From Candidatus Deferrimicrobiaceae bacterium (GTDB lineage: Bacteria > Desulfobacterota > Deferrimicrobia > Deferrimicrobiales > Deferrimicrobiaceae): 64,000 bases of DNA. Shown piece by piece: positions 1,297-33,915 of this stretch; the first letter of the stretch is position 1; every line of letters starts with the position of its first letter. The notes under the pieces are model-generated. The model did no database searches. It saw nothing but the letters and a program-made list of their open reading frames with translations, and was not told where the DNA came from. Location: positions 192,001-256,000 of the forward strand of contig CAWBVY010000004.1 of the NCBI GenBank assembly GCA_963792415.1, given 5' to 3'. Position numbers and translations under genes: made by a program.

Positions 1297-1578
1297 TTAC
1301 CCGCCGCAGCCGCAGGAAGGCTTCGAACCGGTAAGCCACCCGTTCAGGATCGCGGCGGCGCACCCCACGCCCGGATTCACCGAGATCGCCTGCGTCGGGC
1401 AATTCCTCGCGCACGCCCCGCACTCCATGCAGGCGTCGCGGTCGAGGATCCGGGCCTTGCCGTCCGCCACGGCGTAGACCCCGTGAGGACACACCTCCTC
1501 GCACATCCCGCACCCGATGCATGCGGCATCGGCGAGACGCACGGTGGCAACGCCTTCGATATATCGAAACCCGTCCAT
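1297..1578 (-). CDS. hgcB: Mercury methylation ferredoxin HgcB (alternative GTG start at 1581)
   Basis: Two CxxCxxCxxxCP motifs, including HgcB-type CMECGAC; GVGCA; Cys-containing tail SCGCGG; directly downstream of hgcA. Confidence 0.92.
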   Translation of the reverse strand: MDGFRYIEGVATVRLADAACIGCGMCEEVCPHGVYAVADGKARILDRDACMECGACARNCPTQAISVNPGVGCAAAILNGWLTGSKPSCGCGG

Positions 1579-1600
1579 CACGATCCCCCCTCGACCGATA

Positions 1601-2731
1601 TCAACGGAGAAACGCCCCCCCGACCCAGAGGAGGCCGGCCACTGCCGTCAGGCCCGCCTGGACGGGAAGGGCCCTGCGCATCTCCTTCTCCACGCCCGAC
1701 GGGGACGTGAACGGCGTCGCACCGGTGAAATTCATTGCGGTGAACGACGAGACCGTCGTCATCGCAAGCAGCAGCGCCAGCGCCGTGGGCGTCTCCAACG
1801 TTCCGCGGTACCACATCACCGCGCAAGCCCCGAGGACGGCTCCCGCCAGACCCCCCTTGACCGAAAACGCCCGCCCGGGAAGCCAGGGGAGAAGCACCGG
1901 GGTCACCACGGCACCCGCCAGGATCCCGGCCGCGAGGACTTCCACCGCGCTGAACCCACGCTCCCAAGCCGCACCGAGGGAGAAGATCCCCGGCCCGACG
2001 CCCGCGAGCAGGAACAGGACGGCCGCCGCCCACCCCGCGGTACGCAATAGACCCGTGATTTCGACCGGCGTCAGGACGAGGCGGTCCATCGTGGGGAAAT
2101 CGACCCTTCGCATCTCCGGAGACGCCTTCAACCCGGCCTCGAGGAACGCACGGATGTCGCAGGCGCGCACCGGACCGTACGCCACCGTGAAGCCGCACCC
2201 TTTCCGGACCTCGTGGGCGGCGACCCCGGGCGCGCCGAGCTGCGGAAGGATCAGCATGCGGTGGCGCACCACCTCCGATAACCGCGCCTCCGTCACCCTG
2301 CGGATCACTTCTCCGGTTCCGAAGGTCCCCTCCCCGGCGGCGCACCAGACGTTGACTCCCGAGGTGTCGAGGACCAGGATCCATGCGTCCAGCCCCGCCG
2401 CGTCGCGGCGCACGACGTCGAAGGTCAATTTATAGTTGGCGGTAACCAGGACGGGCGCGTCCGCCCCCGGTGCCCCCAGCGCGTACAGGCCCGGGACGAC
2501 GCGGTAGCGGTCCCTGCCGATCCCCCACCGAATTTTCCACCGGCCCACGAGGTCGCGCCCCCCGATCCGCGAATGTACGCGGGGAACCGGCCCGGCCGGC
2601 GTCTCCACCTGCCCGGCCACAAACGTATCCTCGTAGCGGGGTACGGCCGTCGACGGCGAACCCCCGCCGCAACAGGGTGATCCCTTCCCGCTCGGGGGCG
2701 CGCAGCACTCCCCGCTCTTCGCTTCGCTCAT
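1601..2731 (-). CDS. hgcA: Mercury methylation corrinoid protein HgcA
   Basis: PGLYALG, PVLVTANYKLTFD, cap helix GVNVWCAAGEGTFGT, LPQLGAPG, YGPVRA; C-terminal TM domain ending MNFTGATPFTSPSGVEKE; adjacent hgcB. Confidence 0.93.
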   Translation of the reverse strand: MSEAKSGECCAPPSGKGSPCCGGGSPSTAVPRYEDTFVAGQVETPAGPVPRVHSRIGGRDLVGRWKIRWGIGRDRYRVVPGLYALGAPGADAPVLVTANYKLTFDVVRRDAAGLDAWILVLDTSGVNVWCAAGEGTFGTGEVIRRVTEARLSEVVRHRMLILPQLGAPGVAAHEVRKGCGFTVAYGPVRACDIRAFLEAGLKASPEMRRVDFPTMDRLVLTPVEITGLLRTAGWAAAVLFLLAGVGPGIFSLGAAWERGFSAVEVLAAGILAGAVVTPVLLPWLPGRAFSVKGGLAGAVLGACAVMWYRGTLETPTALALLLAMTTVSSFTAMNFTGATPFTSPSGVEKEMRRALPVQAGLTAVAGLLWVGGAFLR

Positions 2732-2747
2732 CCCCTCTTCCCCCCCG

Positions 2748-3026
2748 TCATCCTTTCGGGAGCAGGTCCGCCATCAGGGGGCCGAGCACTCCCTTGAGCA
2801 TCGTGCTGAGTTCCTCGACCTTGATCAGCGAGAGGCAGCACACCTTCCCCTCTTTCTCCCAGCCGATCAGCGCCAGCTTGTCGCCCCCCCTGATCCCCGC
2901 CCTGTCCCGGAGATCCTTGGGGAGGACCATCTGCCCCCGCTCGTCCACCGTCACCAGCGACTCGACCTTGCACCCCCCGAACGACGGCGTCGTGCAGCAC
3001 GACCCGCTCTTTCCCTGCTTCCTCAT
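2748..3026 (-). CDS. hgcC: HgcAB-associated AbrB/MazE-like protein (HgcC)
   Basis: CKVESLVTVDERGQMVLPKDLRDRAGIRGGDKL swapped-hairpin signature, two CC pairs, first gene of the hgc operon, RBS GGAGG. Confidence 0.8.
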   Translation of the reverse strand: MRKQGKSGSCCTTPSFGGCKVESLVTVDERGQMVLPKDLRDRAGIRGGDKLALIGWEKEGKVCCLSLIKVEELSTMLKGVLGPLMADLLPKG

Positions 3027-3062: not shown

Positions 3063-3120
3063 AATATCTGACAAATCAGATTATACTGATAATACTGCCC
3101 GCGGGACGCACCGGTGTCAA
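3063..3120 (-). promoter_or_regulatory. hgc operon promoter/operator region
   Basis: TTGACA (3115-3120), TATTAT (3089-3094) and TATAAT (3080-3085) on the minus strand; four abutting imperfect 9-bp units; ATCTGA-N4-TCAGAT inverted repeat. Confidence 0.6.
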
Positions 3121-3643: not shown

Positions 3644-4186
3644 TCATTTCCCGGCGTTTTTCGGGATCGGCGGAATGAAGGGTTCCCCGGGGCGCCAGCC
3701 GACGGGGGTCAACTCCCCGGTTTTGAGCGCGGACAGGAGCCGCAGAATCTCGTCGACGCTCCTTCCCACGGTCAGGTCCTGCACGCCGTACGCCCGGACG
3801 AGCCCGTCCGGATCGATGAGGAACGTCCCCCGAAGCGCGGCCCCGAGCCTCTCCAGCAGGACCCCGTACTCCCTCGAGACCTGCTTGGTGAAATCGGCGA
3901 GCAGGGGGAAGCGCAACTCCCCCAGCTCCTGGTTGACCCAGGCCAGGTGGGAAAACTTGCTGTCCGTGCTGATCCCAAGGATCTGCGCGCCTGCCGAGGC
4001 GAATTCGTTCTCCCGCCGGGAGAACTCAAGGATCTCCGAGTTTCATATGGGGGTGAAGTCGAACGGGTAGAAGAACAGGACGACCCACTTCCTTTTGTAG
4101 TCCGACAGTCTGATCTCCCGGAACTGCTTCCCCACGACTCCGGACAGCTCGAACGTCGGCGCCGGGCCATTCACCTGGACCGCCAT
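3644..4186 (-). CDS. Selenocysteine-containing AhpC/TSA-family peroxiredoxin (in-frame TGA at 4043-4045 read as Sec)
   Basis: [25 protein letters not shown]: TGA sits exactly at the peroxidatic Cys, and the frame continues with [30 protein letters not shown]; SECIS-like hairpin downstream. Confidence 0.88.
4007..4025 (-). promoter_or_regulatory. Putative bacterial SECIS hairpin
   Basis: GTTCTCCC-GGC-GGGAGAAC perfect 8-bp stem starting 17 nt after the UGA, with a G-initiated apical loop. Confidence 0.65.
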
Positions 4187-4254: not shown

Positions 4255-5373
4255 TCACCGGGTCGATGCGATCTTCAGCATCTTTTCGTTGGCCTTGAGG
4301 CCATGGCCCGTGAGCGGAGCCACCATGACTCCGCCCCGGAGCGCGGGAACCTTCAGATACGCCGCTACCGGAAGGGCGGATGTCGGCTCCACGTAAAGCC
4401 CCTTGCGGCCCAGCAGGAGCAGCGCGTTCTCGACCTCCGCATCGTCCACGGCGACCACCTGGCCTCCGGTCCGCCGGACGATGTCGACGATCTCCTTTCC
4501 CCGCACCGGAGCGGCGATCGCCACACCCTCGGCGATCGTCTCGCGGCTCTCCACCGGGGGGACGGCGTCGAGGCCGTCCCGGAACATCCGCAGGAGTGGG
4601 GCGCAATTCGCCGCCTGCACGGCGATGTGCCTCGGGATGCGGTCGATCCGACCCGCTTCCTTCAAGTCGCGGAACCCGAGGAAGGAACCGATCAGCAGCG
4701 TCCCGTTCCCGACCGGAAGCAGGATCGCGTCCGGGGCCCGGAACCCCATCTGCTCCCACACCTCGTAGGCGAAGGTCTTCGTCCCCTGGAAGAAAAAGGG
4801 GTTCCAGGAGTGGCTGGCGTAGTAGGTCGTTTCCGCGGCCGCCAGGGCGGCTTTCGCGGTTTCCTCCCGACTTCCCGGGATCCGTTGCAGCGTCGCACCG
4901 TAGAAAAGGATCTGGGCCAGCTTCCCCGGGGAGGTGCTTTCGGGCACGAGAATCTCGCAACGGATCCCCGCCTTCGCCGCGTAGGCGGCGATCGCGCAAC
5001 CGGCGTTCCCCGAGGAGTCTTCCACGACACGCTCGACGCCCAGTTCCTTCGCCTTGCTCACCAGCACGGCGGCCCCGCGGTCCTTGTACGACCCCGTCGT
5101 GAAGAGCTGTTCGAGCTTCAGGTGCAGCACTCCCGGCCCCAACTCGACGGGGAGGATCGGCGTCATCCCCTCATCGAACGACACGACCGCCGCATCCTCC
5201 CCGATGGGCAAAGCCTCCCGGTACCGCCACATCGTCGGCTTCCGCCGGGCGATCTTTTCCGGGTCGAGCCGGGCCTCGAAGCGGACGTCGAGGAGGCCGC
5301 CGCAGCCGCACCTCCACCTCGGGTCGTTCATCGGATACGCAGTAGCGCACGACTGGCATACAAGCCCGGTCAA
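4255..5373 (-). CDS. Threonine synthase-like PLP (fold type II) enzyme
   Basis: N-terminal CxxC/CxC, EGMTP, KLEQLFTTGSYKDRG (PLP lysine), DSSGNAG, PVGNGT, VEPTSA; TTG start with GGAGG RBS. Confidence 0.85.
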   Translation of the reverse strand: MTGLVCQSCATAYPMNDPRWRCGCGGLLDVRFEARLDPEKIARRKPTMWRYREALPIGEDAAVVSFDEGMTPILPVELGPGVLHLKLEQLFTTGSYKDRGAAVLVSKAKELGVERVVEDSSGNAGCAIAAYAAKAGIRCEILVPESTSPGKLAQILFYGATLQRIPGSREETAKAALAAAETTYYASHSWNPFFFQGTKTFAYEVWEQMGFRAPDAILLPVGNGTLLIGSFLGFRDLKEAGRIDRIPRHIAVQAANCAPLLRMFRDGLDAVPPVESRETIAEGVAIAAPVRGKEIVDIVRRTGGQVVAVDDAEVENALLLLGRKGLYVEPTSALPVAAYLKVPALRGGVMVAPLTGHGLKANEKMLKIASTR

Positions 5374-5478: not shown

Positions 5479-5835
5479 TCACGGGAGCGGCGAGGTGAAT
5501 TCGACATCGATACTTATCCCGCAAAATGGACAGAATTTCACAGCCTTCGACATGGTCAGTATGCTAGTACGCATGAACGGCACCTTGTACATTACGATAT
5601 ACCCGATGACGGCTCTGCAGTTGGGGCAGTACATGAAAAAATACGCGTAGAACAACGCAAAAATAACGATCGCAAATCCAATGATAAATACGATCGATGC
5701 CATCTTCACATCGGTTACAACGTTGATTGCTATCCCGGAAATGGAAATCAAGATTCCTGACAGTATGACGATCATGATCTTCCGTAGTTTTTCATTGATC
5801 ATTTGCCTTATGGTCATGACCTGTGTCCCTTTCAA
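5479..5835 (-). CDS. Small AT-rich two-TM membrane protein with double CxxC zinc ribbon
   Basis: Two hydrophobic stretches, then YCPNC and FCPFCG; visibly AT-richer than its flanks; start could be 5817. Confidence 0.65.
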   Translation of the reverse strand: MKGTQVMTIRQMINEKLRKIMIVILSGILISISGIAINVVTDVKMASIVFIIGFAIVIFALFYAYFFMYCPNCRAVIGYIVMYKVPFMRTSILTMSKAVKFCPFCGISIDVEFTSPLP

Positions 5836-6005
5836 CGCAAATGCGTACCTGGTTCCTCGCCCATCGAGTATGGCATAAAAATTATGACTCTAAACGGCAG
5901 CCATTCCCCCAGGCCGGATGACTCCATGGAGCAGGAGGAGGAGGATCTCCGGGGTATCTATCCACAGGCACCACTCCTGCGTTCTTCCCTGTGGCAAACT
6001 CCGCG

Positions 6006-6032
6006 TTGCATTTATCAAAAATAATCTATAAT
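6006..6032 (+). promoter_or_regulatory. Possible sigma70 promoter of the lipoprotein gene
   Basis: TTGCAT-N15-TATAAT in an AT-rich patch; the spacer is short. Confidence 0.4.
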
Positions 6033-6108
6033 CCGGTAACATCCGCAAGCACAACGCTCCGGACGCGGAGATATACGGCCCATACCCCCTGACCGTGAGG
6101 AGGGTTCG

Positions 6109-7404
6109 ATGAGAAGGCTGGCCTGGGTGTTCGTCGCGATGCTGTTCGCGGGCTGCGGTGGCGGAGGCGGTGGTGGCGGCGGTGGCGGCGGTCATACCCC
6201 GGAGATCTCGAACCTCCAGTTTTCTCCGACATCCGCCATGGTGAACGATGGGGGGGGAACCGTCAACATCTCGGGGAGTTTCGATTTCACCGACAGCGGA
6301 GGCGATCTCGCCCGGATGGTTCTCACCACGTACGACGATAATCATAACCAGGTCGAATCAATTACCATTCCTGTCTCTTCTCCGGGAGTTACCGCGGGGA
6401 CGCTATTCGGAACCGTAATAATTGACACATCCGCACCCGGGGTCTTCACGTTTACCGTTCTTCTTTACGATTCTGCCGGCAATGCATCCAATTCCCTCGG
6501 GGGAACATTCTCCGTTACTCCCGACCCCTGGCAACCCCGGAGCAACCCCCTGTCGCCGGGAACCCAGATCACATCCGTGGCGTACGGCGGGGGACTCTTC
6601 CTCGCCGGGGCGGACGACAACAGCATCCTGGGATCGGCCGACGGGGCTACATGGTTCATCGCAAACTCCGGGATCGGGAAAATGATCCGGAGAATCAGTT
6701 ACGGAAATGGGCATTTCGTGGCGATCGCCGAGGACCAGGTTAACGACTTCCTCATCGCATCGGCGGACAACGGAGCCACCTGGACGACAGCTTCGCTGAC
6801 CCTCGGAAGGAATACCTGGCGGGACGTCTCTTTTGGAAACGGGATCTTCTTCGTGACACAGGACTACTCGGACTCTCTGTATGCCTCCCTGGACAACGGG
6901 GCTACGTGGACCCGCGTGTCGTCGGGACTGACCAGTCTCGGCATGAATGCGCCCGCGTACGGAAACGGGAAATTCGTTGCGGCGGCCGATGGAGGAGACC
7001 TGTTGGTTTCCGGCGACGGAATCGACTGGTCCCTCGGCACCCCTTACGGCGGTACTTCCCGCCCTGTGATCGCTTTCGACAACGGGGTGTTCGCGATCGT
7101 CCCGCTGCTTCTCGAGGATATCTACGTTTCGCACGACGGTGCCATCACATGGCAAAACCGGTTCACGATCCCCACTTACTGGCGGATGTGGGACCTCGCC
7201 GCGGGTGACGGCATGTTCGTCGGCGTGGGGAGGATCGACTCGCAACAGGGTGGCGCTCTCTGCGCATCCTACGGAGGGGACGCGTGGGTGACGCGTACGC
7301 TCGGAAACAGCGATTTGTGGGGGATCGCTTACGGGAACGGGACGTTCGTGGCCGTTGGAGACAACGCGACGATCTACCAGTCCGCCCCGGGGTGGAAACC
7401 GTAG
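6109..7404 (+). CDS. Lipoprotein with Gly linker, Ig-like region and BNR/Asp-box-type beta-propeller repeats
   Basis: Lipobox LFAGC, poly-Gly, repeated SxDGxxW and YGNGxFVAV units. Confidence 0.8.
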   Translation: MRRLAWVFVAMLFAGCGGGGGGGGGGGGHTPEISNLQFSPTSAMVNDGGGTVNISGSFDFTDSGGDLARMVLTTYDDNHNQVESITIPVSSPGVTAGTLFGTVIIDTSAPGVFTFTVLLYDSAGNASNSLGGTFSVTPDPWQPRSNPLSPGTQITSVAYGGGLFLAGADDNSILGSADGATWFIANSGIGKMIRRISYGNGHFVAIAEDQVNDFLIASADNGATWTTASLTLGRNTWRDVSFGNGIFFVTQDYSDSLYASLDNGATWTRVSSGLTSLGMNAPAYGNGKFVAAADGGDLLVSGDGIDWSLGTPYGGTSRPVIAFDNGVFAIVPLLLEDIYVSHDGAITWQNRFTIPTYWRMWDLAAGDGMFVGVGRIDSQQGGALCASYGGDAWVTRTLGNSDLWGIAYGNGTFVAVGDNATIYQSAPGWKP

Positions 7405-25859: not shown

Positions 25860-26008
25860 TTCTTGCCGCTGACCGTTACGGAGAGACGCTTCCGCCCCTT
25901 GGCGCGGCGCCGTGAAATGACTTTCCTGCCGCCGGGGGTCGACATCCGCTCCCGGAACCCGTGGGTTCTTTTCCGCCGCAGGTTGTGCGGCTGGTACGTG
26001 CGCTTCAT
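25856..26008 (-). CDS. rpmH: 50S ribosomal protein L34 (not in ORF track)
   Basis: Manual translation [42 protein letters not shown]. Confidence 0.97.
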
Positions 26009-26124
26009 GGGAATTTCGCTCCTTCCATCAACACGACTCGCTCAAATGACGGGAATTGTATAATCTATTGCCTTATGGACCACCGTGTCAACCGGTTTTC
26101 CGGCAGGACACGTCCGGGGAGCCC

Positions 26125-27027
26125 ATGCCTACGAAGAACATTCCGCGGTTCGATCTGCGCAGGCTGTTCGGTCTTCCCCTCCTCTCGGCGGGAAAGGGGC
26201 CGGGTGCGCCCGCGCCCCTCGACAGCGAGCTCCTCTTCGACCTGACCGGGGAGAATCCGGAGAACCGGCTCTTCGGCCGTTACGGTCCCGAGGAGCTCCG
26301 GGACCGCCTCGTCGCATCGGGACTGCTGGCCGGCCTCTCGGAGCGGGGGTATACGGACCCGCTCCTTCGCCTCTCGTGCGCCGATCCCTCCGACCAGCGG
26401 ATCTGCCTGTACGCCGGGGAGGAGGCCCGTGAGCGGCTCCTCCTCGAAACGCGCCTGCAACTGGCCCCCTTCCACCCGCGCCGACCCATCGGACCCTTCA
26501 CGGAGGAGTCCTCCTTCCGGATGCTCGTGATCCACTGGCTCGTCCTCTCTTCCCCCGACGGGACGTTCACCGTCGACCGGCCGCGCCTTCCGGGGCAGGA
26601 GAAGCCCGGGCTGGGACTGCTGAACCCGACGATCGCGCTGCTCAAAGCCCTCTCCCGGGAACTGTCCGTCGACGGCGTGCTCGATGTCCCGGACCATTTC
26701 CACACGGCACTTTTCTACTCCCGCGCATTCCGCTATCTCGACCCGGAGGCGGAGGGGCGGTTCCTGGCGATCGCACGCGACCTTTCCGGCATCCCGCTGA
26801 CGCTGGCCTCCGACGCGATCCGGGAAGGGTGCCTCGTCGAACGGACGACCGGGGCCTCGATCTCCTGGCCCGCCGCGGAGCAGGTGCTGGCGCTGCGCGG
26901 ACCGCTGGCCCGTTTCCTTCGGTCCCCTTCGTATCGCGAGGCCAGAAACCGGGCGTTGGCAGATCATCGGTTCGTTGTCAACTGGGATCTTTACCGGGAG
27001 AACCTCGCCCACCGGGACCGCCCGTAA
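26125..27027 (+). CDS. Conserved hypothetical protein between rpmH and dnaA
   Basis: 300-aa ORF with native codon style; motifs RPRLPGQEKPGLG and PDHFHTA. Confidence 0.7.
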   Translation: MPTKNIPRFDLRRLFGLPLLSAGKGPGAPAPLDSELLFDLTGENPENRLFGRYGPEELRDRLVASGLLAGLSERGYTDPLLRLSCADPSDQRICLYAGEEARERLLLETRLQLAPFHPRRPIGPFTEESSFRMLVIHWLVLSSPDGTFTVDRPRLPGQEKPGLGLLNPTIALLKALSRELSVDGVLDVPDHFHTALFYSRAFRYLDPEAEGRFLAIARDLSGIPLTLASDAIREGCLVERTTGASISWPAAEQVLALRGPLARFLRSPSYREARNRALADHRFVVNWDLYRENLAHRDRP

Positions 27028-27191
27028 AAATATCCTTGCGTCCCGTTTTTCGCGTGTGGTACCCTCCATCCCTCATCTGCTTCCTTCCTGTCGTACGGAG
27101 GCGGAAACGGATCCGGCCCTCTCGCGGGAATACCGGTGAGAAAACCAAAGAAATCGTCACCTAAGGTGCTGAAATTCAAGGGAAATAAAGG

Positions 27192-28848: not shown

Positions 28849-29973
28849 ATGAACTTTACTGTGGACAGAGATCTGCTCATCGACGTGCTCACCGGAATCC
28901 AGGGTGTCGCGGAGCGACGACACACGATGCCCGTACTCTCCCACGCGTTGCTGACCATCGGCGGCGGAAACCTGACGGTGGTGTCGTCGGACCTTGAGAT
29001 CGTGGTCCGCTGTCTGCAGCCGATCGCCGCGGGCGAACCCGGGTCGATCGCCCTCCCGGCCCGCAAACTGCTCGACATCGCCAAGGTGCTTCCGAAGGAA
29101 TCCACGGTGAGCGTCGCCGGGAAAGAGGGGAACTACGTCGAGATCTCCTCGGGCCGGTCCCATTTCCGCCTTGCGGGATTGCCTTCACAGGAATTCCCCG
29201 AGATGCCGGAAAAGCCGTCGGGGAAAACGGTATCGATCGACGGAGACACCTTCCGGAGGCTTTCCGAGCGCGTGGTGCCGTTCGCCTCCTCCGACGAAAC
29301 GCGGTACAACCTCGCCGGGATCCTGCTCGAGCGGGCCGAAACGGAGTCGGGGTCGATGCTGCGGATGGTTGCCACGGACGGTCACCGGCTGGCGATGGCC
29401 GACGGCGAGGTCGGAAACGTCGGGGAACTTCTCGCGTCGCGAAAGATCCTCGTTCCCAAGAAGGGGATACAGGAGATCCGCAAGCTCGCGGAGAGCGGGC
29501 CCGGCTCCATCGAACTGTCCGCGTCGGAGAAGTTCCTGTTCGCCGCGAAGGGGGATACGGAGGTCTGGGTACGGCTGCTCGACGCCGATTTCCCGGACTA
29601 CCGGCAGGTCGTGCCGAAGGAGAACCAGCTGACGGCCACGGTGGCCCGCGATGCCTTCGCCGAAGTGCTGCGCCGCGTCGCCGTCATGGCGCCCGACAAG
29701 GTGCACAGCGTGAGGCTCTCCTTTTCGGGGAAGCAACTGGAAGTCTCGTCGACCAGCCCGGATCAGGGGGAAGCCAGGGACCTTCTGGAATCGGAGTACG
29801 AAGGTCCCGCGATGAAGATCGGGTTCAACGGAAGGTATCTGCAGGATGCGGTCTCGGGGGTTTCGGAGGAGAAGATGGTTCTGCAACTGAAGGACGAGGT
29901 CTCGCAGGTGATCCTTCGTCCGGAGAAAGAGAGCAACTACCTGGCGATCGTGATGCCGATGAGGATCTATTAA
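28849..29973 (+). CDS. dnaN: DNA polymerase III beta clamp
   Basis: VATDGHRL, FPDYRQV, IGFNGRYL, IVMPMR. Confidence 0.98.
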   Translation: MNFTVDRDLLIDVLTGIQGVAERRHTMPVLSHALLTIGGGNLTVVSSDLEIVVRCLQPIAAGEPGSIALPARKLLDIAKVLPKESTVSVAGKEGNYVEISSGRSHFRLAGLPSQEFPEMPEKPSGKTVSIDGDTFRRLSERVVPFASSDETRYNLAGILLERAETESGSMLRMVATDGHRLAMADGEVGNVGELLASRKILVPKKGIQEIRKLAESGPGSIELSASEKFLFAAKGDTEVWVRLLDADFPDYRQVVPKENQLTATVARDAFAEVLRRVAVMAPDKVHSVRLSFSGKQLEVSSTSPDQGEARDLLESEYEGPAMKIGFNGRYLQDAVSGVSEEKMVLQLKDEVSQVILRPEKESNYLAIVMPMRIY

Positions 29974-29992
29974 GCGGGTTAACTCAAGAGTC

Positions 29993-30162
29993 CGGCGGAG
30001 TCGCCGCAGGAGGGGGGGCGTAGTGAGGTAAAGCGCCCCACTCCCGGACCAAATGCGCTTCCTGGGGTACCCCCGCTGTAGGAAGAACGGGGGGCACAGC
30101 CGTGCAGGTTCACCGCACGGCGAGCCACGAACGGAGCCCCGCCCTCCGAGGCGACGCAGCCG
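29993..30162. other. Highly structured non-coding element (candidate ncRNA or interspersed miniature repeat)
   Basis: Nested inverted repeats closing the ends, plus three internal hairpins; no credible ORF. Confidence 0.6.
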
Positions 30163-30177
30163 AAAGGGCAGCACTAA

Positions 30178-32694
<2,517 letters not shown>

Positions 32695-33050
32695 TCCGGC
32701 GGCCTGCGGACGTTCGTCCGGCCGCGTTCTCCGGGCGCCGACGGAGCCGGCACGGAAATCCCACCGCGGGAGCGGCCTCTGGCGGACCAGCGATGAATCC
32801 GGGTCCGTACCGGAAGAGATCCGTTGCCGAGAGTGCACGTTCGGCCCACACCCGGTATCATCCTCCCGCGATTCCGGCCGAAAGGAAAATCCCCTCGTTC
32901 CGCAGGTCAAAGAACGGGGACCGGGCGCGTCGTGCAGGCGTCCAGCGCGGTTCCCGGGCCGGGACAACATCAGGACAAATGCAAATAAATTCATAAAAAC
33001 AACAACTTGTAGTTTATTAACGGGGGGTTCCGACGGGGAGTATCGTTGAC

Positions 33051-33090
33051 TTGACACGTTATGAAAGAGCATGACAATATGTGACATATT
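33051..33090 (+). promoter_or_regulatory. Promoter and palindromic operator of the catabolic operon
   Basis: TTGACA-N16-GACAAT overlapped by the perfect inverted repeat AATATGT-G-ACATATT (33076-33090). Confidence 0.6.
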
Positions 33091-33915
33091 TTGACCTGGA
33101 TTGAGAGAATCTATTTGGACCTCAATGGCGAAAAGATCGATCTGATCCCGGCTCGGCGCCGCAGCATGATATTGGAACTGATCCGACAGCAAACTTCCGT
33201 CTCGGTGCAGGAGTTGGCGCAAAATGTCGGGATCTCCCTCTCTACTGCCCGGCGGGACCTGGATGCGCTGAGCAGGCTGGGATTCATCGAACGCAGTTAC
33301 GGCGGGGCGATATTACCTCTGGCCCTGGGCACCGCCGCCGAGCTGGACCTCGGAATTTCCGCGCATTTTTCCCACGAGGAAAAGAAGGCGATCGGCCGCG
33401 TGGCGGCCGAACTCCTGCTCGACCGGCAGACCGTTCTTTTCGATTCCGGTTCCACGGTAATGGAAATTGCGCGGCGGGTTGTGGAAAAGGGGCTTCGGCT
33501 GACCGCCGTGACCAATGACGTGAAAATGGCGGGGTTGTTCGCCAGGTCGACGGCGATTCAGGTCGTCGTCCTGGGAGGCACGATGCGGCCCGGCTCTCCC
33601 ACACTGGTTGGCGAACCGGGGCTGGGTTTTCTCAAATCCCTCCACGTCGACGTTTCCTTCATCGGCATTCACGCGGTCAAGGGCGCCAGGCTCTGCGAGA
33701 CGACGATCGATCTCGCCGTGTTGAAGCGCGGTATGCTGGATGCGGCAGAGTACGGAGTCCTAGTGGCGGATGCCGGCAAGTTCGGCGCCACGGCGTTCTG
33801 TGACGTCTGCGACGTAAGCAAGTTGGATGAAATCATCACCGACAGCCGCCTTGAGGCGCCGAGGCGGAAGGAGCTCGAGGATCTGGGGGTCAAGCTTCGG
33901 ATCGCTTCCGGATAA
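33091..33915 (+). CDS. DeoR/GlpR family transcriptional regulator (start uncertain)
   Basis: STARRDL HTH, RSYGGA, EKKAIG, DSGST. Confidence 0.92.
   Translation: MTWIERIYLDLNGEKIDLIPARRRSMILELIRQQTSVSVQELAQNVGISLSTARRDLDALSRLGFIERSYGGAILPLALGTAAELDLGISAHFSHEEKKAIGRVAAELLLDRQTVLFDSGSTVMEIARRVVEKGLRLTAVTNDVKMAGLFARSTAIQVVVLGGTMRPGSPTLVGEPGLGFLKSLHVDVSFIGIHAVKGARLCETTIDLAVLKRGMLDAAEYGVLVADAGKFGATAFCDVCDVSKLDEIITDSRLEAPRRKELEDLGVKLRIASG

What the first reader, a model, noticed from the sequence alone, without database searches (positions are those of the whole stretch)
1297..3026. Complete hgcC-hgcA-hgcB mercury-methylation operon with a non-canonical cap helix (NVWCAAGE)
Seen: codons at 2330-2353 give NVWCAAGE, with GAG at the position usually Lys. 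The cobalt-ligating Cys, TM domain and a typical hgcB are intact. Established: the usual HgcA motif is N(V/I)WCA(A/G)GK, and many screens filter on GK-ending motifs. Inference: a likely functional methylator variant that strict motif filters would discard. The operon lies about 25 kb from oriC with no mobility genes nearby.
Basis: partly seen in the sequence, partly recalled or inferred. Interest (0 to 1): 0.75.

Follow-up and report, generated by a model that had tools for sequence, protein, structure and literature searches.

The report
Mercury-methylation operon with Glu-variant motif
This is an intact set of genes for turning mercury into methylmercury, with one letter changed in its signature motif; the change is fixed across a lineage of uncultured sediment and soil bacteria, and strict motif filters used in environmental surveys discard such genes.

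Summary
Confirmed: an intact hgcC-hgcA-hgcB operon (minus strand, 1297-3026) whose HgcA cap helix reads NVWCAAGE, not the usual ...GK. All three genes pass NCBIfam cut-offs.

The Glu is not a read error. 159 of 160 close relatives (71-100% identical; the best named ones are Ca. Deferrimicrobium) carry it, also in a motif-blind and a Lys-favouring search. It is the only departure among 54 family-conserved columns. Glu recurs in at least 8 separate places on the HgcA tree, usually with a separate hgcB (12 of 15 loci). A solved corrinoid-binding homologue has Asp at the aligned position.

In a published 2432-sequence HgcAB alignment GE occurs 69 times, as often as or more often than three accepted spellings. 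The consensus protocol's own table marks all 29 GE rows seen as failing high stringency.

Most likely a working Hg methylase variant, perhaps with an altered rate; activity is untested. The impact is limited: HMM annotation and the universal primer still catch it. New variant of a known system.

The parts
2748..3026 (-). hgcC: 92-aa AbrB/MazE-fold HgcAB-associated protein, putative regulator, first gene of the operon
   Evidence: NF040962 118 bits (cut-off 70); PF04014; same position in L032, L062, L067
1601..2731 (-). hgcA: 376-aa corrinoid protein with Cys-rich N-terminal extension, corrinoid-binding domain and five-helix membrane domain
   Evidence: NF040863 443.6 bits; model pLDDT 91.4; best fold hit is the computed HgcAB model 9a0b, E 6.5e-22, then CFeSP structures
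2330..2353 (-). Cap-helix motif NVWCAAGE (residues 127-134); Cys130 = ND132 Cys93; Glu134 = ND132 Lys97, codon GAG at 2332..2330
   Evidence: helix 128-134 in the model
1297..1578 (-). hgcB: 93-aa 2x[4Fe-4S] ferredoxin (ATG at 1578; an in-frame GTG lies at 1581)
   Evidence: NF040864 127 bits; Cys 20, 23, 26, 30, 50, 53, 56, 60, 73, 89, 91
1414..1431 (-). HgcB CMECGA motif (residues 50-55)
   Evidence: translation; motif definition in PMC10087281
1306..1314 (-). HgcB C-terminal Cys-Gly-Cys (Cys89, Cys91) in place of the adjacent CC pair; same tail in L032, L062, L067
3066..3120 (-). Candidate promoter/operator: TTGACA at 3120..3115, inverted repeat ATCAG-N6-CTGAT at 3075-3090 enclosing TATAAT, and an overlapping ATCTGA-N4-TCAGAT at 3066-3081
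   Evidence: TTGACA in 3 of 3 close loci, ATCAG-N6-CTGAT in 3 of 3, absent from the archaeal locus L031. The consensus scan called no minus-strand promoter here. Function inferred only.

Best explanation
A chromosomal, vertically inherited HgcAB mercury methylase of the Ca. Deferrimicrobium lineage, in which the last cap-helix residue changed from Lys to Glu and is tolerated. It should work like canonical HgcAB (established for ND132; inferred here). HgcB's two [4Fe-4S] clusters reduce the HgcA cobalamin to Co(I). SAM methylates it to a Cys-on methylcob(III)alamin through Cys130. The HgcB tail cysteines (here Cys89/Cys91) and Cys73 handle Hg(II) and CH3Hg+. Position 97 is not a cobalt ligand. 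In the published model Lys97 NZ makes one hydrogen bond to B12 atom O39. If O39 is a side-chain amide carbonyl (recalled atom naming), Glu can take a hydrogen bond from the NH2 of the same amide, or the contact is simply lost. The rate may differ from GK enzymes. Shown: gene integrity, fixation in the clade, recurrence, conservation, loss to filters. Inferred: cofactor binding and methylmercury formation.
For: (1) 53 of 54 columns conserved at >=90% in 142 GK representatives are kept in the window protein; Glu134 is the only departure. These columns are 99.5% conserved across 138 clade members, against 86% for family-variable columns. (2) All other B12-contact residues of the Cooper model (T60, A61, T66, G88, N90, V91, W92, Q127, A153) are present. 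(3) The aligned residue is Asp in the solved CFeSP 4DJD and Ala in 2H9A/4C1N and 9FZY, so the corrinoid pocket does not need a positive charge there. (4) GE needs 10 changes on a 42-row IQ-TREE tree, at least 8 of them forced by well-supported branches; a single GE clade is rejected, p-AU 6.5e-38, with the motif column left out. (5) GE loci keep a separate hgcB in 12 of 15 cases, against 1 of 47 for NVWCxxGG and 0 of 9 for xxGA loci. (6) Purifying selection: dN/dS 0.25-0.41 against six clade loci and 0.08-0.17 within a separate Desulfocapsa-type GE clade, where Glu is encoded by both GAG and GAA. (7) The order msrA-hgcBAC-cupin is kept in 3 of 3 close loci. (8) HgcB needs only one tail Cys in ND132 (PMC7305189); this one has two.
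Against: No GE protein or isolate has been assayed. [quoted passage not shown] Lys is kept in about 95% of representatives (143 of 147 with an NxWC motif), so it is under selection, and K-to-E reverses the charge beside the cofactor. dN/dS of hgcA (0.25-0.37) is at the level of msrA/msrB but higher than cupin (0.04-0.08), thrC (0.15) and glmS (0.18) in the same genome pairs, so some relaxation is not excluded. One of three full-length clade loci (L062) has a frameshift in hgcA, and one clade member has Lys (P0230). No consistent compensating residue was found across GE lineages; HgcB position 58 is Arg here but Met in the three close loci. Selection on HgcA need not be for Hg methylation at all.
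Confidence: 0.72

Rival explanations
1. GE-type HgcAB is folded and kept by selection for its unknown native methyl-transfer role, but methylates mercury poorly or not at all, as reported for fused HgcAB-like proteins. The strict filter would then be right to drop it.
For: Charge reversal at a residue modelled to touch B12. Lys in 143 of 147 representatives. Changed HgcB tail in this clade. dN/dS higher than core genes. Fused HgcAB-like proteins keep the cap helix yet tested strains do not methylate (PMC10087281).
Against: Every residue reported essential in the papers read (Cys93, HgcB Cys73, one tail Cys, the TM domain) is present. GE co-occurs with a separate hgcB, including normal CC tails in the Desulfocapsa-type loci. 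Asp occurs at this position in a corrinoid-binding structure.
Confidence: 0.17
2. The Glu is adaptive rather than merely tolerated: a negative charge at the corrin edge retunes the Co(II)/Co(I) potential, attracts the cationic SAM sulfonium, or fits a different cobamide, and this has been selected repeatedly.
For: At least 8 independent changes. Fixed in 159 of 160 clade members. Kept through a synonymous change (GAG/GAA) in a second clade. Among loci with a separate hgcB, Glu far outnumbers other non-Lys residues seen (12 Glu, 1 His, 1 Gly).
Against: AAR to GAR is a single transition, the easiest change, so recurrence is expected without advantage. My genome pattern excluded codons starting with A, so Arg(AGR), Asn, Thr and Met variants were not counted. 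No shared ecology or co-varying residue was found.
Confidence: 0.1
3. The GAG codon is a sequencing or assembly error, or the gene is a decaying pseudogene.
For: AAG to GAG is a single base; the window gives no read data.
Against: An independent 374/376-identical record has GE, as do 119 of 120 relatives in each of three searches, one blind to the motif and one using the Lys form as query. All three ORFs are intact.
Confidence: 0.01

Closest known systems
HgcAB mercury methylase of Pseudodesulfovibrio mercurii ND132 (NF040863 / NF040864)
   Same: Domain layout, Cys93 equivalent, all other modelled B12 contacts, five-helix membrane domain, adjacent hgcB with identical Cys numbering through Cys73; 50% identity to the ND132-based model 9a0b.
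   Different: Lys97 is Glu. The HgcB tail is C-G-C rather than CC. The upstream gene is hgcC (AbrB fold), not the ArsR-like regulator described for ND132. Cys-rich N-terminal extension.
HgcC / AbrB-PrlF-like gene upstream of hgcAB (NF040962; PMC7438021, PMC10349881)
   Same: Directly upstream of hgcA, above the family cut-off, MazE/AbrB fold.
   Different: Here in a bacterium; PMC10349881 found it mostly in archaeal isolates (6 of 8). A conserved inverted repeat upstream is a candidate operator that I did not see described in the passages read.
Corrinoid iron-sulfur protein large subunit AcsC (2H9A/2YCL, 4DJD, 9FZY)
   Same: Homologous corrinoid-binding domain with a cap helix; Asp or Ala at the position aligned to HgcA 97.
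   Different: Thr in place of the Co-ligating Cys, no membrane domain; 71.5 bits against a cut-off of 306.
Fused HgcAB-like proteins and NVWCAAGG paralogues (NF043039)
   Same: NVWC cap helix and a non-Lys residue at position 97.
   Different: They form a separate long-branch group, often carry a ferredoxin motif in the same ORF (30 of 54) and rarely have a separate hgcB (1 of 47). The window protein scores 189 against a cut-off of 285.

Membership tests
HgcA (NCBIfam NF040863) | Score above curated cut-off | tested here: met
   443.6 vs 275 bits
HgcA (NCBIfam NF040863) | Co-ligating Cys (Cys93) in an NVWC cap helix | tested here: met
   Cys130 in helix 128-134
HgcA (NCBIfam NF040863) | C-terminal membrane domain of about five helices | tested here: met
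   Helices 221-242, 252-279, 289-307, 314-338, 344-375 in the model; hydropathy cut-off found three stretches
HgcA (NCBIfam NF040863) | Separate hgcB directly downstream | tested here: met
   hgcB starts 20-22 nt after the hgcA stop
HgcA (NCBIfam NF040863) | Phylogenetic placement among canonical HgcA | tested here: met
   Nested among GK sequences in a 10-row group with SH-aLRT 98, apart from the GG paralogues. The GK rows are unnamed representatives; no confirmed-methylator or Hg-MATE sequences were in the tree.
HgcA (NCBIfam NF040863) | Binds cobalamin Cys-on and produces methylmercury | not testable with these tools
   Needs protein or strain assays
High-stringency hgcA of the consensus protocol (Capo 2022) | One of six cap-helix motifs, all ending in GK | tested here: not met
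   NVWCAAGE is not on the list; GE rows are marked 'no' in the paper's table. Not filed under this class.
Moderate-stringency hgcA of the consensus protocol (Capo 2022) | Hg-MATE HMM bit score >= 100 | tested here: inconclusive
   The Hg-MATE HMM was not available. Similar GE paddy fragments score 217-369 in the paper's table, and NF040863 gives 443.6, so a pass is very likely.
HgcB (NF040864) | Two CxxCxxCxxxCP motifs, C(M/I)ECGA and Cys73 | tested here: met
HgcB (NF040864) | At least one C-terminal Cys | tested here: met
   Cys89 and Cys91. The adjacent CC pair of ND132 is absent, but tails vary and one Cys suffices.
HgcC (NF040962) | Score above cut-off and position next to hgcAB | tested here: met
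   118 vs 70 bits
HgcC (NF040962) | Regulates hgcAB transcription | not testable with these tools
   Only proposed in the passages read
AcsC/CdhE corrinoid Fe-S protein (NF003195) | Score above cut-off, full-length match | tested here: not met
   71.5 vs 306 bits, residues 77-199 only
Fused HgcAB-like protein (NF043039) | Ferredoxin fused in the same ORF; score above cut-off | tested here: not met
   189.1 vs 285 bits; ferredoxin is a separate gene

The most novel reading that the evidence does not exclude
GE-type HgcAB is fully active, and the Ca. Deferrimicrobium clade carrying it is an abundant methylator guild of paddies, peatlands and sediments. GK-only filters have removed it from genome catalogues and metagenome counts. 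Restoring it, with the GE lineages in Desulfocapsa-like bacteria, methanogens and Chloroflexota, would measurably improve the poor link between hgcA abundance and methylmercury at some sites. The Glu would be a repeated retuning of the corrin environment. ArsM-HgcA fusions in the same clade would further tie SAM-dependent arsenic and mercury methylation into one polypeptide.
Probability: 0.25. Interest if true: 0.8.

Novelty: new variant of a known kind. Interest (0 to 1): 0.56.

Why it matters
hgcA motif filters decide which microbes are counted as producers of methylmercury, a neurotoxin that builds up in fish and rice. GE is about 3% of a global HgcAB alignment (69 of 2432) and at least as common there as WCSAGK, WCASGK and WCAGGK, which the consensus protocol accepts. 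It is concentrated by lineage: nearly every member of this Deferrimicrobium-type clade fails the filter, so the loss is taxonomically biased. One point mutant (K97E) would decide whether GE should be added. Adding E specifically looks safe, because GE loci carry hgcB while GG/GA loci mostly do not. Limits: GE was only 32 rows against 5211 WCAAGK rows in the stored part of Capo's table. A 2026 paddy study also reports Deferrimicrobiaceae as roughly 10-62% of hgcA abundance in 17 samples of one site after a stated GK filter, so the family as a whole is not invisible.

Tried and rejected
- Full-length homologue search timed out; region searches worked. Cluster sizes by exact look-up could not be obtained.
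- Smith et al. 2015, the mutagenesis paper, is not held, and a search for K97/W92A/N90A/V91A with hgcA found nothing relevant. The measured effect of changing Lys97 therefore stays unknown here. I recall that cap-helix alanine mutants were tested but give no value.
- The single GTDB scan used a broad pattern (any codon not starting with A after NVWCxxG).
- Search for compensating changes: 14 hand-picked GE lineages against 142 GK rows gave only weak, inconsistent signals. An HgcA Glu - HgcB Arg58 salt bridge was rejected as a general explanation, because Met58 occurs in the three closest loci. The coevolution table of Cooper 2020 could not be searched for residue 97.
- Horizontal-transfer island rejected: GC3 of hgcA/B/C 0.83-0.91 against 0.82-0.95 for neighbours and core genes, and synteny is conserved.
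- The sigma-70 scan found no minus-strand promoter. No significant SECIS-like fold after the peroxiredoxin TGA (z 0.24).
- No complex prediction was run, as it would not discriminate Lys from Glu.
- Metagenome and viral contig collections stayed unchecked, so gene context is known for only three full-length clade loci. Read-level confirmation was not possible.

Full report
OBSERVATION. The minus strand carries three intact ORFs: 3026..2748 (92 aa), 2731..1601 (376 aa) and 1578..1297 (93 aa). They pass the NCBIfam cut-offs for HgcC (118 vs 70), HgcA (443.6 vs 275) and HgcB (127 vs 99). The HgcA falls below those for fused HgcAB-like proteins (189 vs 285) and AcsC (71.5 vs 306). Residues 127-134 are NVWCAAGE, with GAG at 2332..2330. 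HgcB has the ND132 Cys numbering through Cys73 but ends in C-G-C-G-G. The locus lies between msrB-msrA and a cupin gene, about 24 kb from dnaA, the DnaA boxes and the skew minimum. None of the 70 hand-picked ORF entries scanned matched a mobility family.

THE GLU IS A LINEAGE TRAIT. A search with residues 60-220 returned 120 best hits at 82-100% identity over that region; 119 of 120 have NVWCAAGE and one (P0230) has GK. Scoring could favour Glu, so I ran two controls. Residues 140-376, which exclude the motif, gave 119 of 120 GE. The Lys-bearing P0230 as query over the motif returned no further Lys form among its 120 hits. Pooled, 159 of 160 distinct entries (71-100% identical; the pool includes the window's own protein and some start-site duplicates) have GE. 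The best named hits are 'HgcA [Candidatus Deferrimicrobium sp.]' at 325/376 identity and a Deferrimicrobiaceae entry, so the window most likely comes from that lineage (inference). A few hits carry other labels (Actinomycetota, Desulfobacteria, Deltaproteobacteria). An independent record is 374/376 identical and also GE. These lists hold only the top 120 hits, so they describe this clade, not the whole family.

RECURRENCE. Among 150 representatives at 50% clustering, 3 have GE and 143 end in Lys. GE loci include Deferrimicrobium/Deferrimicrobiaceae, Desulfocapsa and Desulfobulbaceae, a Methanomicrobiales archaeon, a Bathyarchaeia archaeon, a Treponema, Nitrospirae, Nitrospinota and Chloroflexia; all are MAGs. 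With the motif column removed, a 198-row FastTree puts the window protein in a fully supported GE clade among GK sequences, away from the GG paralogues. It needs 13 K/E changes for 39 E and 144 K tips (deep branches are weak and GE rows were deliberately enriched). On a 42-row IQ-TREE subset that I chose from this tree, 10 changes are needed and at least 8 are forced by branches with SH-aLRT >= 95. One GE clade is rejected (p-AU 6.5e-38). Of 15 GE loci with flanks, 12 have a separate strict-motif HgcB. L068 has a 48% tblastn hit that the strict pattern missed, L001 has an assembly gap, and L034 belongs with the paralogues. For GG loci the figure is 1 of 47 with room downstream, for GA 0 of 9.

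SELECTION AND ANATOMY. Of 54 columns conserved at >=90% in 142 GK representatives, the window matches 53; position 134 is the exception. Clade conservation tracks family conservation (Spearman 0.62 over 331 columns). NG86 dN/dS against six clade loci is 0.25-0.41, and 0.08-0.17 in 14 of 15 pairs of the Desulfocapsa-type GE clade (one pair saturated). In the same genome pairs msrA gives 0.27-0.30, msrB 0.20-0.43, hgcB 0.18-0.26, cupin 0.04-0.08, thrC 0.15 and glmS 0.18. So hgcA is under purifying selection, at the weaker end; high GC3 probably inflates all these ratios, and I had no GK benchmark. L062 has a frameshift near residue 290. The model (pLDDT 91.4) shows a cap helix at 128-134, with Glu134 as its last residue, and five C-terminal helices. 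Its best fold match is the computed HgcAB model 9a0b, then CFeSP structures. No experimentally solved HgcA appeared in the sequence searches.

MECHANISM. In ND132, SAM methylates the HgcA cobalamin to a Cys-ligated methyl-Co(III); Cys93, HgcB Cys73, at least one tail Cys and the membrane domain are needed (PMC11588087 and PMC7305189, passages). All have counterparts here. Supplementary Table 3 of PMC7305189 lists one modelled contact for Lys97: NZ to B12 O39, 2.9 A. From recalled ligand nomenclature, O39 is the carbonyl of a corrin side-chain amide, which could instead donate its NH2 to a Glu. In the gap-free alignment to solved CFeSP proteins, the residue aligned to position 97 is Asp in 4DJD and Ala in 2H9A/4C1N and 9FZY. 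I conclude that the change is most likely tolerated (0.72). A crippled enzyme (0.17) and adaptive retuning (0.10) remain open. The mutagenesis paper could not be read.

EFFECT ON SURVEYS. Capo 2022 lists six high-stringency motifs, all ending in GK, and recommends them for routine use. GK-only filters are also stated in PMC7438021, PMC11513008, PMC10349881, PMC12997803 and PMC7536318 (passages). In Capo's supplementary table (cut when stored) there are 32 WCAAGE rows against 5211 WCAAGK rows; rows repeat genes across samples. All 29 GE rows I saw are 'no' at high stringency and accepted at moderate, including a full-length gene at 506.6 bits and paddy fragments that by eye belong to this clade. 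In Cooper 2020's uncut alignments the counts are WCAAGK 2170, WCAAGE 69, WCSAGK 69, WCASGK 30, WCAGGK 17 in the paired file (2432 sequences by the text), and 3653, 121, 104, 41, 27 in the HgcA file. Other spellings were not counted. Against a large effect: GE is about 0.6% of the GE+GK rows in Capo's data; NCBI already names relatives HgcA; and the universal forward primer matches the window exactly at 2334-2353. In addition, PMC12997803 assigns about 10-62% of hgcA abundance in 17 samples of one paddy site to Deferrimicrobiaceae after a stated GK filter (my arithmetic from Data S7). Either other members of the family carry a GK hgcA outside the clade I sampled, or the filter was applied differently; I could not resolve this.

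NOVELTY. Full-text searches for NVWCAAGE, hgcA + WCAAGE and HgcA/lysine/glutamate/cap-helix/variant returned no paper. Searches for hgcA with Deferrimicrobi*/MBNT15 returned no discussion of the motif in the passages read. GE sequences are present in two papers' supplements. The library lacks most subscription journals, a motif written as G(K/E) could not be searched, and bioRxiv supplements and Hg-MATE itself were not seen, so prior mention is not excluded.

PAPERS SEEN. PMC10087281: passages and supplement rows. PMC7305189: passages, supplement 1 part 1, supplement searches. PMC12997803: passages, section 8, supplement rows. PMC11588087, PMC7536318, PMC7438021, PMC11513008, PMC10349881, PMC7573106, PMC9386147: passages. 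10.1101/2022.11.21.517362: listing only. Smith 2015 and Parks 2013: not seen.

VERDICT. A real, intact hgcCAB operon; a new variant of a known system. It is probably functional and has a demonstrated, lineage-biased blind spot in strict screens. Interest 0.56.

Noticed in passing
window 4186..3644 (-): Peroxiredoxin with an in-frame TGA at codon 48 in the active-site motif (PFDFTPI-U-NSE); read through it gives 180 aa, best family NF040737 PrxU at 157 bits (cut-off 270). Probable selenoprotein; no significant hairpin after the TGA.
   Followed up: partly
proteins P0283 (628 aa, 19 member sequences) and P0222 (549 aa): Arsenite methyltransferase (NF008823, 340.9 bits in P0283, cut-off 263) fused in frame to a GE-type HgcA of this same clade. 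Notable because SAM is HgcA's methyl donor. Other representatives fuse ArsC (P0105) or an SO_0444 efflux domain (P0051) to HgcA. DNA not checked; one paper search listed three papers, and I saw no such fusion in the passages read from two of them.
   Followed up: partly
window 3066-3120; L032 5810-5825; L062 3683-3698; L067 4271-4286: Conserved inverted repeat ATCAG-N6-CTGAT and a conserved TTGACA upstream of hgcC in all four Deferrimicrobium-type loci; candidate operator for HgcC.
   Followed up: partly
L004-L120 (80 of 123 pattern matches): Large HgcA-like paralogue family with NVWCAAGG in Chloroflexota, Myxococcota, Desulfobacterales, archaea and others; often with a ferredoxin motif in the same ORF and almost never a separate hgcB.
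   Followed up: partly
L049, L056, L064, L069, L073, L117: A second fixed-GE clade in Desulfocapsa/Desulfobulbaceae-type MAGs, with normal CC-tailed HgcB in the five loci with flanks, dN/dS 0.08-0.17 and both Glu codons; may offer a route to a cultured test strain.
   Followed up: partly
L061; L003 and L081: Rarer variants inside canonical HgcA: NVWCAAGH with hgcB in a Smithella MAG, and NVWCAAGA in a Peptococcaceae MAG and one other.
   Followed up: no
L062, about 4900-4916: Frameshift in hgcA near residue 290 in an otherwise syntenic relative; assembly error or pseudogene.
   Followed up: no
window 5479-7404: Lower-GC stretch (about 61%) between thrC and glmS with a 118-aa ORF and a 431-aa lipoprotein-like ORF; absent in L062, where glmS and thrC are adjacent.
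   Followed up: no
window 25900-27100 and 29973-33100: About 1 kb between rnpA and dnaA with overlapping ORFs that match no Pfam family. dnaN is followed by gyrB with no room for recF, and gyrB by a DeoR regulator rather than gyrA.
   Followed up: no
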